Assembly: GCA_963514005.1 (NCBI GenBank)
Contig: OY740783.1
Span: forward strand, 133,424,001-133,488,000
From: Raja brachyura
Lineage: Eukaryota
Reading direction: 5' to 3'
Length of the DNA: 64,000 bases
Positions 3,001 through 9,000 of the stretch are shown here, in pieces (position 1 is the stretch's first letter; the number at the start of each line of letters is the position of its first letter). Position numbers: made by a program.

Positions 3001-6000
3001 ATCACAGCTTTAGCATTTCCAAACCAAAGGCAACAGAGCTTTAGCATTTCCAAACCGAAGGCAACAGAGCTTTAGCACTTCCAAACTATATGTTCAAACC
3101 ACATTAAGGGCGCTGACGGGTCAGTAAAACTACGCACAGTTTAGTAGACACGTGTTCAGTGTTATTCACAGCTCAGACTGAGAGACGTGACCCTCTCGCT
3201 CCCCCATCTTGCAGAGACTGACTGAGGCACTCAACACTTCCAGGTTTTATAGTTCCTCCGGAAGGGGCTTGGCCTTCAGGAGAGATAATCTCAACATTTT
3301 TTAAACACTAACAACTCTTTGATTTTTCATCTAAGGGAAACATCCTCTTGTCCTGCGCAGCGGAGGGAGACTCCGGAGGGAGTAAGATGGCCAAAAATCA
3401 CAACCGTCAGTGGCAGCGTTTTTTTCTAAAAGCAATATACAGAACAACAAGAAGTGGTCAAGATCAGACTTTTAGTAATATAGATTATCTGATCTGACAC
3501 AAAGCTATTCACTGTACCTCGATACACATGACAATACACCTAAACCTTCCACCACTAATGCACCTGGTCTACCCGTCTACCCTCCCCGTACCAGTATCCA
3601 CCTATCACTTGCCAGACTTTGTCCAGCCTCCACCTCTCTTCCAGCTTTCTACCCCCATTATAATCAGACTGAAGAATGGTCCCGACCCAAAATGTCACCT
3701 GTCCATGTTCGCCAGAGAGGCTGCCTGAGCCGCTGAGCCTTTGTTCGTAAAGCCGTCTATGCTGTTCCTCATTTCTGATGTGCAGGAAGGAACAGCAGAT
3801 GCTGGTTTACATCGAAGATGGACACAACATGCTGCAGTAACTCAGTGGCTGAGGCAGCACCCCTGGAGAGAAGGTTGACGTTTAGGGTCGAGTCTCTTTT
3901 TCGGACTGAGTGTCAGCGGAGAGGGAAACTGGAAGAATGGAGAGGACTAAAACAAACCAGGGACTGCACAGGTGGAAACGGTGGAGCCCACAAATAGTCC
4001 ATTGTTTGCTGTGAAATAGATAAAAAATGAAGAGATACGAACAGTTAAACCAGCAGGGTGACTAGGATGGGGGGTGGGGGGGGAGGGCGGGGGGTTGATT
4101 TTCGTAGCGAAACCACATGCAAATTAGAGGAACAGTGCCTCATATTGTGCATGGGCAGCTCACAACGCAGGAGAATGAGTGTTGATTTCTCTAATTTCAA
4201 GTTGCCCTTGCGTTCCCTCTGTCTCTGTCCCTCCCCCACCCTAGTCATCCTGCTGGTTTCACTGTTTGTATCTCACGGTTATCCTCTTCCACAGCTGACA
4301 ATGGAGCATTGCGGTCATCTAGTTTGGCTCTCCGCTGACCCTCGGTCTGGAGAAGGGTCTCGACCCGAAACGTCACCCATTCCTTCTTTCCAGAGATGCT
4401 GCTTGGTTTATGATGTACAGTCGAGCCCTGGTCTACCTCATGTAAGGTGCAGCGCTGCTCCGCCCCCCCCCCCCCCCCCCCCCACCCCCGACCCTAGGGA
4501 AGGAGCCGGCTACCTTCAGGACGGCGGCGTCAGCTTTGTTAGGTAGGCGAAGGTGACGTTGTGGAACGGGATGTGAGCGCCCAATGTAGCTGGGGCCAGG
4601 GTTCTCTGAAAGACCAGGTCAGGCTGGAGGTCCATGTATTCAAACACCTTCTCCGAGGCACCGACCGCCTTCTTCACTTGAGGATAGAAACGGAGCAGGG
4701 CCTGCCAATGGGCAGCTCACCTGCCCATTGGCAGGTATGTCAGGTTCTAGTCACGCACACGGCTGGAGGCGCGTAACGGAGCAGAGGCAGCGGGAGCCGG
4801 GGGGTGCGTGACAGGGGGACGGGGTCCAGTTACTGGGTGATCGCCGGGCAGGCGGGTTTCCGGTTGTCAGCTGGTTGTCGGGGGGCGGGTGCCCAGTTGG
4901 CGGGTGGTTGCCAGGGGGACGGAGGTCCAGTTGCCTGGCGGTCGTGCTGGTGTCTGTTGATCTGGATCTGTGCCCACCTGCAGCAAACACCCCTCCCCCA
5001 CCTCCCACGCTCGCCTTGACGGCAGAGGGATAGGTGTCCGGTTGCCGGGGGTTTGGCGGTTGGGGTGGAGTGGGTGACCGAGGATCTGGCTCTGGTGGTC
5101 TGGGTCTGGGTCTGGGTCTGGGTCTGGGTCTGGGTCCGGGTCTGGGTCTGGGTCCGGGTCTGGGTCTGGGTCTGGGTCTGGGTGTGGATCTGGGTGTGGA
5201 TCTGGGTCTGGGTGTGGATCTGGGTGTGGATCTGGGTCTGGGTCTGGGTCTGGGTGTGGGTCTGGGTCTGGGTCCGGGTCTGGGTCTGGGTCCGGGTCTG
5301 TGTCTGGGTCTGGGTCTGGGTCTGGGTCTGGGTCTGGGTCTGGGTCTGGTTCTGGATCTGTGTCTGGGTCTGGGTCTAGGTCCGGGTCTGGGTCTGGGTC
5401 TTGGTCCGAGTCTCGGTCTGGCTCTGGTTCTGGGCCTTGCTCTGGTTCTGGGTCTGGACCTGGGTCCGGGTCTGGACCTGGATCTGGGTCAGGGTCTTGG
5501 TCTAGGTCTGTGTCTGTGTCTGTGTCTAGGTCTGTGTCTGTGTCTGGGTCTGGGTCTGTGTCGGGGTCTGGGTCTGTGTCGGGGTCTGGGTCAGGGACTT
5601 GGTCTAGGTCTGTGTCTGTGACTGTGCCTGTGTCTGTGTCTGTGTCTAGGTCTGTGTCTGGGTCTGGGTCTGTGTCGGGGTCTGGGTCAGGGACTTGGTC
5701 TGGGTCCGGGTTTGGGTCTGGGTCTGGGTCCGGGTCTGGGTCTGGGTCTGGGTCTGGGTCTGGGTCTGGGTCCGGGTCTGGGTCTNNNNNNNNNNNNNNN
5801 NNNNNNNNNNNNNNNNNNNNNNNNNNNNNNNNNNNNNNNNNNNNNNNNNNNNNNNNNNNNNNNNNNNNNNNNNNNNNNNNNNNNNNNNNNNNNNNNNNNN
5901 NNNNNNNNNNNNNNNNNNNNNNNNNNNNNNNNNNNNNNNNNGGGTCTGAGTCTGAGTATGGGTCTGGGATCTGTGCCGGCCACCAGCCTCGACGGCGGAG

Positions 6001-9000
6001 GTGAACTGCAGCTGGTAAAGGATGAAGGAGACGAGGAACCCACTGGTGGCGCTGCCCTCGGCCACCAGCAGCCACCCGAAGCACAGCACAGACACTTTCA
6101 GCATCAGCCCCGACAGCTGTAGGACACAACAGCAGCTCCGTGAAAGGCTGCACCAGGGCACCAGCCCGGCCACCCCAACCCCAGAGAAACACCTCCCACT
6201 GATCCCCTCACTCCTACAGAATCACCTCGCCCATACCGCCAGACCTGCCCTCAACCCCAGAGCCCGACTTCCGCTCACCCACTCACCGTACACCCTTCGC
6301 CCCTCCGCCCCAACCCATCCCCATAGAATCACCCCAAGATGCCGCTCCTCCTGATGCAGACGCACTTCCCCCAGACGCAGATGCACCTTCTGCAGACGCC
6401 CCTCCCGCAGACGACCCTCTCCCACACACAGACGCCCAACCCAAATGCCTCTCCTCCAGACGCAGACGCACTTCCCTCTCCAGCAGACACCCGTCCACCC
6501 GACTGCCCTCCTCCAGATGACGACGCCCCTTCCATGCTCACCAGCCGAGGACAGGACCACGAAGATAGCCACATGGAGGAAGCGTCTGGGATCTGACGGT
6601 GGCGGGCATCTGGCCCGGTGTCTGAGCCCCCTTCTGGGGCAGGAAACGGTGGGCCACCACCAGCCCCAGGGAGGTGATTAGGTAGGTGAGGGGCAGGCGG
6701 GTGACGAGGGTGACCTGCAGGAGCTCGGTGTGGGTGGAGCCCGCGGCCAGTGCCAAGCTGGCGTTGGTGTGAAGCAGCAGGCAGCGGGTGGCCTGTGCCG
6801 GCTATGGCTCAACTTGACGCTGCCCCCCAGACGTACCAGCGGCCGCTGGTGGACGGACAGCGCATCGAGATGCACCACCCCCACAGCCAGAGCTGCAACA
6901 GCGGCCCCACCCCCACAGCCGCAGCGCCCCGCTCAGCACCCAACTGACCGTCACGGCCAACAGGGCCAGTGGCAGTAGCAACACTGGCAACGCCATCCTC
7001 CCTACAACACAGGCAGCCCGTCACTGGCAGTGCCCACACTCTACCACCGCACTACCAACCCTCTGCCCACCTCCCACTCCCCCGGCCTGCCATTCCCAAC
7101 GGTTTATGCACAGGACAGGTTTGCAGGGATATGGGCCACGCGTATATTTGAATCGTTTCCTTTGATACAGCTCCAAATAGAATAACAAATAAAGAGCTGG
7201 AGGAGCCAGCGGAGCAGGGAGCATCCCAACCCTCCAACAGATGCCCCTCTATGTTGAACAACATGGAGGAGGCACAGGGAATTGCAGGCGTTGGAATCTT
7301 CAGCAAAACACAAAGTGCTGGAAGAACGCAGCGAATCAGGCGCTGCAATGAGGGAGGGAGTGGACAGATGACGCTCTGGGCAGGGACCCTTCTTGAGACA
7401 TCAGTCTTTCAGGTTTAACATCCATAGAGTGCGAGGAGCGGGGGGGGGGGGGGGGGATGGGGATAAGGGAGGAGGGGCAGAGCAGTGGGGGGAGGGCAGG
7501 CAAGGGGAACAGTATGGGGAGGGTGGAGTGGGAAAGGGATTGGTGCAGGTAAGGGGACGGAGCGGGAGAGAGGATGGTGGGGCAAAGCGCGGGTGGGATG
7601 GGCATTGGGGGGGGAGGGAGAGGTAAGGGGAAGAGATAAGGAGGAAGGATGTGACGGGAGGGACGTAGGATAGGGCAGAGTGGGGAGGGAACGAAAGAGG
7701 GGAGGCAGAGGAGGGGATGGGGTAAGGGGCATGGAGGGGGGGTACCCGTTCTCTGGGTCAGATGCAGAGCAGCACCCTCACTTCCGCTGCCGTCCTCTCC
7801 CCACACCTTTAACTCTGTACCCCCAACTCCCTATCCTCTCCCCACCTCATCCCCCCAGCAACTCACTCTCCTCACCACCCTTTAAAACTCTCTCCCTCCC
7901 TCACCATCTACCCCCGCCAACCCTACCAACACCACCCCCTTCGACTACTTCCCCTCACACCCCGTCCAACACTCTCACCCGCCTCACTCCCTCTCCCCCC
8001 AAAACCTCCCAACTCCACCCCTTCCCAACTACCCACCCAACTACTCCCCCTCACACTCGTCCAACAACCTATCCCCGCCTCACCCCCCAAACCCTCCCAG
8101 CACCACCCTTTCCCCCAACTCCCTGCTTCAACTACTTCCCCTTGCACCCATCCAAAATCCACTCCCCGCCTCACTCCCTATCTGCCCAAACCAATCAACA
8201 CCACCCCTTCCCAAACACCCTCCCCACCCGCTCCCATCCCACTCCTCACTCCCCAACCTCCCCCTCCCCCGTCATTCCCCCACAATTCCCACCCCTCTCC
8301 CAACTTCACTCCCTCTTAAACCCCGCCGCCGATACGTTTAACTCCACCGTCTTCCCAGTTGCCTCCCATTCCCCCCTCCCCATGCTCGCCGCCTCCTTTC
8401 CCCGGCCTCCTCTCCCCCCGCCTCTCCTTTTCCTATCCGGGGGGGGGGGGTGCCGGGCGTGGATGGAGGGGAGAGAGGAATGTGGAGGGAGGGGGACAGG
8501 GGAGAGGAGGGTGGAGAGGAGGGTGGGGTTGAGGAGGGAAGGAGGGGGAGATGGGGGACGGGGAATGGTAGGGGTTAAAGGAGGGGCAGAGGTGGGAGGG
8601 AGGGGGAGTGGGAGGAAGGACGGGGGGCGTAGGGGGGGCAGAGGATTGGGGAGAAAGAGGAGGGAGGGGGAAAGAGGTGGGGGCAGGGGAGAGGGGAGGA
8701 GGGGGGGGACAATTGATTGGAGGAGAGAGGGAGAGGTGTGGTGGTGTGGAGTGGTGGTGTGTTATGGAGAGGAGTGAGGGGTGGAGTGTGGTATGGAGTG
8801 GGGAGTGAGGGTTAGGGGTGTGTTATGGAGTGGGGAGTGAGGGGAGGGGGAGAGTCATGGAGGTGAGAGAGGGATGGAGATGCAGGGGATGATTAATGTT
8901 GGAGGAGATATATCGTCCGAGATGTGGGGCAGTGAGACAGGTAAGTCCGGGGTAAGTAGACCAGTATATCATGGGGGTCGGTTCGGCCGTGGGGGAGAGG

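What the first reader, a model, noticed from the sequence alone, without database searches (positions are those of the whole stretch)
4514..6996. TAP1 relic beside the receptor cluster: possible MHC linkage
Seen: equivalents of TAP1 exons 1, 6 and 7 in order on the minus strand. Only ~425 bp separate exon 1 from exon 6, so exons 2-5 are gone. There are frameshifts and a GC donor, and no exon 8 was recognised downstream. Known: TAP1 is a core MHC class I region gene, MHC-linked in sharks, and V-type receptor genes such as NKp30 map to the MHC. Inference: either this window is in or near the MHC, which would make the receptors MHC-linked, or a TAP1 fragment was carried here by duplication.
[Added by the scan's program, not by the reader: the finding's places include an assembly gap (unread letters, written N; its length is only estimated) at 5786 to 5941. 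Whether the letters on both sides are continuous or in frame is not known: test that first.]
Basis: partly seen in the sequence, partly recalled or inferred. Interest (0 to 1): 0.75.

Follow-up and report, generated by a model that had tools for sequence, protein, structure and literature searches.

The report
Dead TAP1 gene fragment in skate
This is a broken, partial copy of the antigen-peptide transporter gene TAP1 in a skate genome, beside a cluster of Siglec-15-like immune receptor genes; it is an ordinary pseudogene and does not show that the receptors lie in the MHC.

Summary
On the minus strand lie equivalents of TAP1 exon 1 (6996-6542), exon 6 (6116-5988, 129 bp) and exon 7 (4701-4514, 188 bp), in order. 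Against thorny-skate TAP1-like protein P0003 the tblastn E-values are 1e-36, 9e-16 and 4e-24.

Exon 1 and exon 6 are 425 bp apart. No trace of exons 2-5 or 8-11 was found anywhere in the 64 kb. Exon 1 has four frame changes and a TAG stop. Exon 7 has a 1-bp deletion. The exon-6 donor reads GC.

The N gap (5786-5941) lies inside a hexamer microsatellite in the intron between exons 6 and 7. It touches no coding sequence.

The identity is TAP1, not TAP2 or ABCB9. The copy derives from the skate TAP1 lineage: it shares 36 of 50 skate-specific residues.

MHC linkage is not supported:
- No other MHC gene was found in the window.
- The neighbouring receptors are Siglec-15-like, not NKp30-like.
- Relatives of these receptors lie on different chromosomes from TAP1 in 4 of 4 informative species.

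Linkage is not excluded either. The window could not be placed, and skate MHC genes sit on unplaced scaffolds. Verdict: an ordinary unprocessed pseudogene fragment, of low interest.

The parts
6542..6996 (-). TAP1 exon-1 equivalent (start codon, N-terminal membrane domain). It is disabled by four frame changes and a TAG stop at 6804-6802.
   Evidence: tblastn to P0003 aa 1-165, joint E 1e-36. Frame map. About 116/161 residues identical to the A. radiata protein.
6117..6541 (-). 425-bp spacer where exons 2-5 and their introns should be. It is G-rich, with degenerate internal repeats (an 82-nt unit, 61-72% alike).
   Evidence: No TAP1 match in any frame. Repeats.
5988..6116 (-). TAP1 exon-6 equivalent, 129 bp, open frame. 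Its acceptor is ctacag. Its donor reads GC (5987-5986).
   Evidence: E 9e-16 to P0003. 35/43 identical. Human TAP1 9.2e-09 against ABCB9 0.015. G395W falls at a position invariant in 18 TAP1 proteins.
4702..5987 (-). Intron-6 equivalent. It is mostly a hexamer microsatellite (5097 to about 5975) that contains the N gap 5786-5941, followed by a 33-34-bp minisatellite at 4812-4942.
   Evidence: TRF and the sequence itself.
4701..4735 (.). Perfect 15-bp-stem palindrome abutting the exon-7 acceptor.
   Evidence: Self-match. DNA fold -20.6 kcal/mol, z -5.96, 0 of 200 shuffles as good.
4514..4701 (-). TAP1 exon-7 equivalent, 188 bp. It has a 1-bp deletion near 4542-4543 and a GT donor at 4513-4512.
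   Evidence: E 4e-24 to P0003. 48/53 identical before the frameshift. The tail in the other frame was printed and compared by eye (7/10).
3854..4402 (.). Repeat-derived DNA just downstream of the last TAP1 exon. It has inverted arms (3854-3936 with 4315-4402, and 3998-4073 with 4233-4305) and a dispersed ~55-bp unit that occurs 7 more times in the window.
   Evidence: Self-BLAST.

Best explanation
This is a non-functional, intron-containing partial copy of the skate TAP1 gene (an unprocessed pseudogene). It does nothing now; what can be explained is how it arose.

Shown:
- It keeps the start codon and all of exon 1, then exon 6, an intron and exon 7, in the parental order and orientation, with recognisable splice sites.
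- It has no exons 2-5 and no exons 8-11, so it lacks most of the core membrane domain and the whole ATP-binding domain.
- Its frame is broken in at least six places.
- It carries residues specific to the skate TAP1 lineage.

Inferred:
- A DNA-level duplication, not retroposition, copied the 5' part of TAP1 up to intron 7 after skates split from sawfish and manta-type rays.
- An internal deletion then joined intron 1 to intron 5.
- A hexamer microsatellite expanded in intron 6.
- Point lesions accumulated under no constraint.
- Repeat insertions now flank the 3' break.

The copy lies about 2.5 kb outside the first unit of a tandemly duplicated cluster of two-V-domain, Siglec-15-like receptor genes. 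Most likely this place is not the MHC class Ia core. The relic would then be a dispersed fragment rather than a marker of MHC linkage.

My odds: TAP1 pseudogene about 0.95; located outside the MHC about 0.65.
For: Identity and colinearity:
- E-values of 1e-36, 9e-16 and 4e-24 to P0003.
- Only these three places match a 20-sequence TAP1 profile among 2584 segments.
- The best database hits are all TAP1 (3 of 3), and P0003 is nearest to human TAP1.

Death of the gene:
- Four frame changes in exon 1 and a TAG stop.
- A 1-bp deletion in exon 7.
- No match to aa 166-368 or 477-718 of P0003 anywhere in the window.

Not retroposed: the intron between exons 6 and 7 is kept, with acceptor and donor sites.

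Skate-lineage origin:
- At 50 sites where both skates agree and differ from sawfish plus Mobula, the relic has the skate state at 36, the other state at 1 and a third state at 13 (one exon-1 piece that the aligner misplaced was left out).
- Identity to skate TAP1 exceeds identity to sawfish TAP1 in every piece.

A full-length TAP1-like exists elsewhere in skates: P0003 on a 96,026-bp contig, and L. erinacea P0157 on a 101,471-bp contig.

Location:
- The relic lies outside the tandem unit 9563-18770 / 24292-32942.
- Pfam found only V-set domains and retroelement domains in 165 of 165 ORFs >=85 aa and 328 of 335 ORFs of 55-84 aa.
- Receptor relatives and TAP1 lie on different contigs in 4 of 4 species where both are on large contigs.
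- 0 of 5 sawfish receptor-relative gene IDs are in the published supplementary gene tables, which include the MHC chromosome 34. The tap1 ID is found there.

Against: - The window's species and chromosome are unknown. Its receptor exons are at most 75% identical to any annotated skate protein, so their orthology to the big-chromosome clusters is an inference.
- Intron-containing duplicates usually arise close to the parent gene, which favours an MHC-near position.
- Skate tap, c4 and MHC genes are on unplaced scaffolds (PMC10751288), so the skate MHC chromosome is not known here.
- Pfam did not flag even the relic's own exons at E <= 0.001. Its failure to find other short MHC exons is therefore weak evidence.
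- Contig length was used as a stand-in for chromosome identity.
- Only 3 of 33 positions invariant in 18 TAP1 proteins are changed in the relic. That is fewer than about 23% overall divergence would predict, so part of the divergence may date from a constrained period, or may lie on the parent's branch.
- Some single-base frame changes could be assembly errors in this G+C-rich stretch.
The breakpoints, the origin of the 425-bp spacer and the state of the parent's exon-6 donor are untested.
Confidence: 0.65

Rival explanations
1. The relic is an in-situ remnant of a local TAP1 duplication. On this reading the window lies in or next to the skate MHC class Ia region, and the Siglec-15-like receptor cluster is MHC-linked in skates.
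For: - The copy kept introns and its 5' end, as local segmental duplicates do.
- Skate tap and MHC genes are on unplaced scaffolds, so their neighbours are unknown (PMC10751288; contigs of 96,026, 101,471 and 566,988 bp).
- L. erinacea has two TAP1-like loci.
- Non-rearranging V-type genes do occur in elasmobranch MHCs (passage on NKp30 and UrIg in PMC10751288).
Against: - No other MHC-region gene was found in 64 kb, whereas the sawfish class Ia region spans 87 kb in all.
- The receptors are Siglec-15-like, not NKp30-like.
- Receptor relatives are on a different contig from TAP1 in 4 of 4 informative species.
- 0 of 5 sawfish receptor-relative gene IDs were found in the published supplementary gene tables, which include the sawfish MHC chromosome.
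- In both annotated skates the receptor relatives sit on chromosomes of 113-131 Mb.
Confidence: 0.25
2. The arrangement is an assembly artefact. On this reading the missing exons and the frame changes come from collapsed or mis-joined reads of the true TAP1 locus, in a region rich in repeats and gaps.
For: - There are four N gaps in the window, one of them inside the relic's intron.
- The region has 56-62% G+C, long microsatellites and a poly-G run just after exon 7.
- The annotated L. erinacea TAP1-like models are themselves imperfect.
Against: - The exon-1 to exon-6 spacer is continuous sequence without N.
- The relic differs from skate TAP1 by about 23% of residues, including substitutions and a nonsense codon, not only indels.
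- It is no closer to either annotated skate: at 10 sites where they differ it has the Arad state at 3, the Leri state at 2 and another state at 5.
- This pattern means a diverged second copy, not a misread first copy.
Confidence: 0.05
3. The fragment is still used, either as a short N-terminal TAP1-like peptide, as a non-coding transcript, or as a captured promoter for neighbouring genes.
For: - The ATG, the first 31 codons and the splice signals are kept.
- L. erinacea has an annotated 492-aa TAP1-like model that stops 6 residues after the exon-7 equivalent.
Against: - The frame from the ATG leaves the TAP1 reading after 31 residues and stops at codon 65.
- No ISRE-type core (GAAANNGAAA) lies upstream. 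There are 3 matches in the window, none within 6997-7400, against 2.45 expected by chance.
- No RNA family was matched.
- No expression data were available.
Confidence: 0.03

Closest known systems
Skate TAP1 (P0003, XP_032872737.1, 'antigen peptide transporter 1-like', Amblyraja radiata; L. erinacea P0157 and P0156 are in the same 90% cluster)
   Same: Exons 1, 6 and 7 are colinear. Identity is about 72% in exon 1, 81% in exon 6 and 91% in exon 7 before the frameshift. The relic shares 36 of 50 skate-specific residues.
   Different: The relic lacks exons 2-5 and 8-11 and has six or more disabling lesions. P0003 is a full 718-aa transporter with ABC membrane and ATPase domains.
LMP7 (PSMB8) pseudogene fragments of the nurse shark (Ohta et al. 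2002, as cited in PMC1513397; I saw passages only)
   Same: Both are antigen-processing genes of an elasmobranch MHC class Ia region that left pseudogenes holding only fragments of the gene, with retroelement-rich introns.
   Different: It is a different gene and species. The map position of those fragments was not read here.
L. erinacea 492-aa TAP1-like model (P0156, XP_055487155.1, contig 566,988 bp)
   Same: It ends at the same place as the relic, 6 residues after the exon-7 equivalent.
   Different: Its exons 1-7 are all present and in frame. Whether its 3' end is a real truncation, an assembly break or an annotation limit is unknown.
Human TAP1 (PDB 5u1d chain A and others)
   Same: The exon-6 piece aligns to chain residues 418-459 (E 9.2e-09). 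The exon-7 piece aligns to 461-513.
   Different: Human TAP1 is a functional 11-exon gene inside the MHC (passage in PMC6949311).

Membership tests
TAP1 (ABCB2) gene lineage | Sequence is nearer to TAP1 than to TAP2 or ABCB9 | tested here: met
   Exon 6 scores 37.7 bits to TAP1 and 18.8 to ABCB9, and TAP2 is absent from the 10 hits. All 3 database hits of exon 7 are TAP1. P0003 is nearest to human TAP1. Exon 7 against human chains alone is equivocal: 37.9, 37.7 and 36.0 bits.
TAP1 (ABCB2) gene lineage | TAP1-type N-terminal domain encoded by exon 1 | tested here: met
   aa 1-165 of skate TAP1 align over 6996-6537 across four frame changes, joint E 1e-36.
Functional TAP1 transporter | Complete core membrane domain and ATP-binding domain in one open frame | tested here: not met
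   No match to P0003 aa 166-368 or 477-718. There are frame changes and a stop.
MHC class Ia region gene | Close linkage to PSMB8/9, TAP2 and a class Ia gene | tested here: not met
   None of these were found in the 64-kb window, though sensitivity for short exons is low. Placement on a chromosome is not possible with these tools.
Unprocessed (duplicated) pseudogene | Retains introns and splice sites of the parent | tested here: met
   The intron between exons 6 and 7 is kept, with an AG acceptor at both exons and GT donors after exons 1 and 7.
Unprocessed (duplicated) pseudogene | A separate intact parent gene in the same genome | tested here: inconclusive
   Full-length TAP1-like proteins exist in two skate species on other contigs. 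The window's own species is not known.
Processed (retroposed) pseudogene | No introns, and a poly-A tail | tested here: not met
   A 1286-bp intron equivalent (its length includes the estimated gap) separates exons 6 and 7.
NKp30 (NCR3)-type MHC-linked V receptor (for the neighbouring genes) | V domain nearest to NKp30 | tested here: not met
   The A. radiata relative P0013 hits Siglec-15 best (9.1e-11), then TIM-4, CD33 and PVR. NKp30 is not among the 34 hits at E <= 0.01. This was tested on the relative, not on the window's own spliced product.

The most novel reading that the evidence does not exclude
Skates may carry a recurrent 'front-half' TAP1 module: exons 1-7, meaning the N-terminal domain plus the membrane core, without the ATPase. 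It would be copied to several places. One copy still reads open in L. erinacea (the 492-aa model that ends 6 residues after exon 7) and could act as an ATPase-less partner or decoy in the peptide-loading complex. The window's relic would be a decayed sibling, seeded at the edge of an immune-receptor cluster. A second bold reading, also not excluded, is that this receptor cluster is truly MHC-linked in skates.
Probability: 0.12. Interest if true: 0.55.

Novelty: new member of a known kind. Interest (0 to 1): 0.22.

Why it matters
If the relic really lay in the MHC, a Siglec-15-like receptor cluster would join the list of V-type genes linked to the ancestral MHC. That would bear on models of how antigen receptors and the MHC arose together. 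The evidence points the other way.

As it stands the fragment has three practical uses:
- It warns annotators not to use TAP1 similarity as an MHC marker in skates.
- It is a possible dating marker for duplications in skate genomes.
- It hints that the poorly assembled skate TAP1 region has thrown off partial copies.

Tried and rejected
- Pfam on the relic's own exons found nothing at E <= 0.001, so Pfam cannot name such short pieces.
- The 367-aa ORF at 7674-8774(+), head-to-head with the relic, was checked as a possible PSMB9-type partner. It is low-complexity Pro/Gly/Arg-rich sequence over tandem repeats, with no family match.
- The search for an interferon-response core upstream of the ATG found none nearby.
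- Rfam found no family in the window.
- I tried to tell the source species from sites where A. radiata and L. erinacea TAP1 differ. The result was undecided: 3, 2 and 5 of 10.
- One exon-1 piece (6881-6819) was misplaced by the fragment aligner and was dropped from the site counts.
- Paper searches found no report of a TAP1 pseudogene in skates. The terms were TAP1 + pseudogene + elasmobranch (2 papers), skate + MHC + Leucoraja erinacea + class I + linkage (4 papers), and Siglec-15 + cartilaginous fish (3 papers). I read passages of only one of these papers (PMC1513397); it concerns LMP7, not TAP1, pseudogenes. The rest I judged from the search listings alone.
- The exon pieces were searched and aligned one by one.
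- The genome-contig collection holds only bacteria and archaea and was not used. The window therefore could not be placed, and no genome-wide count of TAP1 fragments was possible.

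
Full report
THE N GAP. The stretch 5786-5941 lies inside a 6-bp microsatellite. TRF reports 5097-5785 with period 6, 114.8 copies and 82% matches. The same motif is read on the other side of the gap at 5942-5975. The nearest coding pieces end at 5988 and begin at 4701. The gap is therefore in the intron between the exon-6 and exon-7 equivalents, and continuity of frame across it is not a meaningful question. 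A listed 446-aa 'ORF' over 4867-6207 is only the open reading of the repeat. The window has three more N runs: 15363-15515, 29203-29370 and 38306-38738.

THE OBSERVATION. The exon-7 piece, searched alone against the large protein collection with the 'longer' setting, returned 3 proteins out of 32 candidates, all elasmobranch TAP1:
- Amblyraja radiata 'antigen peptide transporter 1-like' (P0003, 718 aa), 90% identity.
- Narcine bancroftii TAP1, 75%.
- Hemiscyllium ocellatum TAP1, 63%.

tblastn of P0003 on the window gave three colinear minus-strand matches:
- aa 1-143 plus 147-165 on 6996-6537 (joint E 1e-36).
- aa 375-424 on 6134-5985 (E 9e-16).
- aa 423-476 on 4704-4543 (E 4e-24).

Nothing matched aa 166-368 or 477-718, even with word size 2 and E up to 10. 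A profile I built from 20 named TAP1 proteins, run with all filters off over 2584 six-frame segments of at least 15 residues, found only the same three places at significance: 4.2e-24, 1.6e-16 and 7.2e-07. The next best hit was a fourth fragment of exon 1 at 0.13. Only one TAP1 relic is therefore present in the window.

BOUNDARIES AND LESIONS. I read these under the protein guide.
- Exon 1 runs from the ATG at 6996 to 6542, followed by GTGAGC.
- Exon 6 runs 6116-5988 (129 bp), after the acceptor ...tcctacag.
- Exon 7 runs 4701-4514 (188 bp), followed by GTAGCC.
- The spacer between exon 1 and exon 6 is 425 bp. It is uninterrupted sequence with degenerate internal repeats and no TAP1 similarity.
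- Ungapped three-frame matching shows that exon 1 switches frame four times: 6996-6904, 6913-6878, 6881-6819, 6810-6571 and 6593-6543.
- Exon 1 carries TAG at 6804-6802 where skate TAP1 has Trp.
- Exon 7 lacks one C near 4542-4543. One frame then stops after 6 codons, while the other continues with a recognisable TAP1 tail up to the donor.
- From the ATG the frame gives 31 TAP1-like residues and stops at codon 65.

IDENTITY.
- Against all solved structures, the exon-6 piece hits human TAP1 (9.2e-09, 37.7 bits) far above ABCB9 (0.015, 18.8 bits). TAP2 is not among the 10 hits.
- The exon-7 piece is equivocal against human chains: ABCB9 37.9, TAP2 37.7, TAP1 36.0 bits. This part of the protein is conserved across the three paralogues, so I do not read the result as refuting TAP1.
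- The decisive comparisons are the lineage-matched ones and the match to exon 1.
- P0003 itself is nearest to human TAP1 (582 bits), ahead of ABCB9 (514) and TAP2 (428). Among the best 120 of its 974 relatives at E <= 1e-10, the great majority of the named rows are annotated TAP1.

ORIGIN OF THE COPY.
- Identity to A. radiata TAP1 is 116/161 over the five exon-1 pieces, 35/43 in exon 6 and 48/53 in exon 7 before the frameshift. Identity to sawfish TAP1 is lower in every piece, for example 33/67, 32/43 and 37/53.
- I added the pieces as separate rows to an alignment of 21 TAP1 proteins. At 50 sites where both skates agree and differ from sawfish plus Mobula, the relic has the skate state at 36, the other state at 1 and a third state at 13. 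One exon-1 piece that the aligner misplaced was excluded.
- The copy therefore arose within the skate lineage.
- At 10 sites where A. radiata and L. erinacea differ, the relic sides with A. radiata at 3, with L. erinacea at 2 and with neither at 5. It is not a misread of either species' gene, and the source species remains 'a rajid skate'.
- Only 3 of 33 positions invariant in 18 full-length TAP1 proteins are changed (D14A, P77H, G395W).
- Because an intron and the splice sites are kept, the copy was made at the DNA level, not by retroposition.
- The loss of exons 2-5 by a later internal deletion, and the truncation after exon 7, are inferences.
- Directly downstream of exon 7 lie a poly-G run and repeat-derived DNA with inverted arms at 3854-4402, which includes a ~55-bp unit found 7 more times in the window. 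LINE fragments follow at 3-2902.

SURROUNDINGS.
- The window holds a cluster of receptor genes, each with two V-set domains. V1 exons lie at 15538-15894, about 29391-30234 and 57214-57612(-). V2 exons lie at 17014-17448, 31151-31525 and 44569-44925(-). Short tail exons lie near 18755-18918, 33471-33542 and 39061-39153(-).
- Two of the genes belong to a tandem unit, 9563-18770 and 24292-32942, at 84-88% identity. The relic lies about 2.5 kb outside that unit.
- The best relatives of a V2 exon are skate proteins named 'uncharacterized' or 'sialic acid-binding Ig-like lectin 15', at no more than 75% identity (28 hits among 66 candidates).
- The A. radiata relative P0013 hits Siglec-15 best among solved structures (9.1e-11), followed by TIM-4, CD33 and PVR. 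NKp30 is not among the 34 hits.
- The rest of the window is retroelement debris: endonuclease, reverse transcriptase, and a DIRS-like integrase fragment below its cut-off.
- Pfam on all 165 ORFs of at least 85 aa, and on 328 of 335 ORFs of 55-84 aa (7 were dropped as low-complexity), gave no MHC class I/II, C1-set, proteasome, ABC or bromodomain match. Pfam also missed the relic's own exons, so this negative result is weak for short exons.

MHC LINKAGE. I used the contig length given with each protein as a handle for its chromosome. Receptor relatives and TAP1 lie on different contigs in all 4 species where both are on large contigs:

| Species | Receptor-relative contig (bp) | TAP1 contig (bp) |
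|---|---|---|
| Sawfish | 104,354,160 (6 proteins) | 19,913,265 |
| Numbfish | 494,489,450 | 376,162,909 |
| Epaulette shark | 153,571,846 and 81,624 | 49,326,738 |
| Atlantic stingray | 182,407,551 | 187,191,526 |

- Veríssimo et al. 2023 (PMC10751288; I read passages and searched the supplement) place sawfish tap1 on chromosome 34, in an 87-kb class Ia region.
- In their supplementary gene tables, which include that chromosome, the tap1 gene ID is present and 0 of 5 gene IDs of sawfish receptor relatives are. 'Siglec' occurs nowhere in the supplement.
- In the two annotated skates the comparison is uninformative. Receptor relatives lie on contigs of 131,315,132 and 113,524,483 bp, but the TAP1-like genes lie on small contigs of 96,026, 101,471 and 566,988 bp. 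The same paper set A. radiata aside because tap, c4 and MHC were on unplaced scaffolds.
- The evidence therefore leans against linkage but cannot close the question for skates.

A LEAD. The 90% cluster of P0003 holds two L. erinacea models.
- P0156 (492 aa) has exons 1-7 in frame and stops 6 residues after the exon-7 equivalent, the same 3' limit as the relic.
- P0157 (691 aa) is full-length from exon 2 on. In exon 1 it reads a short stretch that matches an alternative frame of the relic's DNA (compare), so that model steps around a frame problem.
- These may be assembly or annotation defects, or signs that skates hold several imperfect TAP1 copies. I could not tell which.

COMPARISON WITH WHAT IS KNOWN. 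This is an unprocessed pseudogene fragment of an antigen-processing gene. [quoted passage not shown] My three paper searches found no report of a TAP1 relic in skates; I read passages of one of the listed papers and judged the others from the search listings. The exon numbers follow the human 11-exon gene (passage in PMC6949311). The human exon sizes are my recollection and were not checked.

VERDICT. The MHC-linkage reading is not supported but not excluded. This is a new member of a known kind, of low interest.

Noticed in passing
window 9563-18770 and 24292-32942 (+); also 39061-44925 (-) and 57214-57612 (-): A cluster of receptor genes, each with two V-set domains, Siglec-15-like by their nearest solved structure. 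Two of them lie in a ~14.7-kb tandem unit at 84-88% identity. No exon is more than 75% identical to any annotated skate protein.
   Followed up: partly
window 15363-15515 and 29203-29370: Two of the N runs sit at the same place in the two tandem units, about 20 bp upstream of each V1 exon match. The same hard-to-read or masked element seems to recur there. They were not filled.
   Followed up: no
window 4701-4735: A perfect 15-bp-stem palindrome abuts the exon-7 acceptor (DNA fold -20.6 kcal/mol, z -5.96). Its meaning is unknown.
   Followed up: partly
window 47568-51371 (-): A DIRS-like retroelement: a reverse transcriptase domain at 49574-50158, and a phage-integrase N-terminal match below its cut-off at 48173-48484.
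   Followed up: no
window 3-2902 (-), 10293-10526 (+), 24928-25242 (+), 60283-61356 (+): LINE fragments with endonuclease, reverse transcriptase and the 'ALKBH8_N' motif. Copies are dispersed through the window at 70-88% identity.
   Followed up: no
window 7674-8774 (+): A 367-aa open frame head-to-head with the relic. It is low-complexity Pro/Gly/Arg-rich sequence over tandem repeats, not a gene.
   Followed up: yes
proteins P0156 and P0157 (L. erinacea): Both annotated little-skate TAP1-like models are imperfect. One stops 6 residues after exon 7. The other reads part of exon 1 in an alternative frame and lacks 27 residues there.
   Followed up: partly
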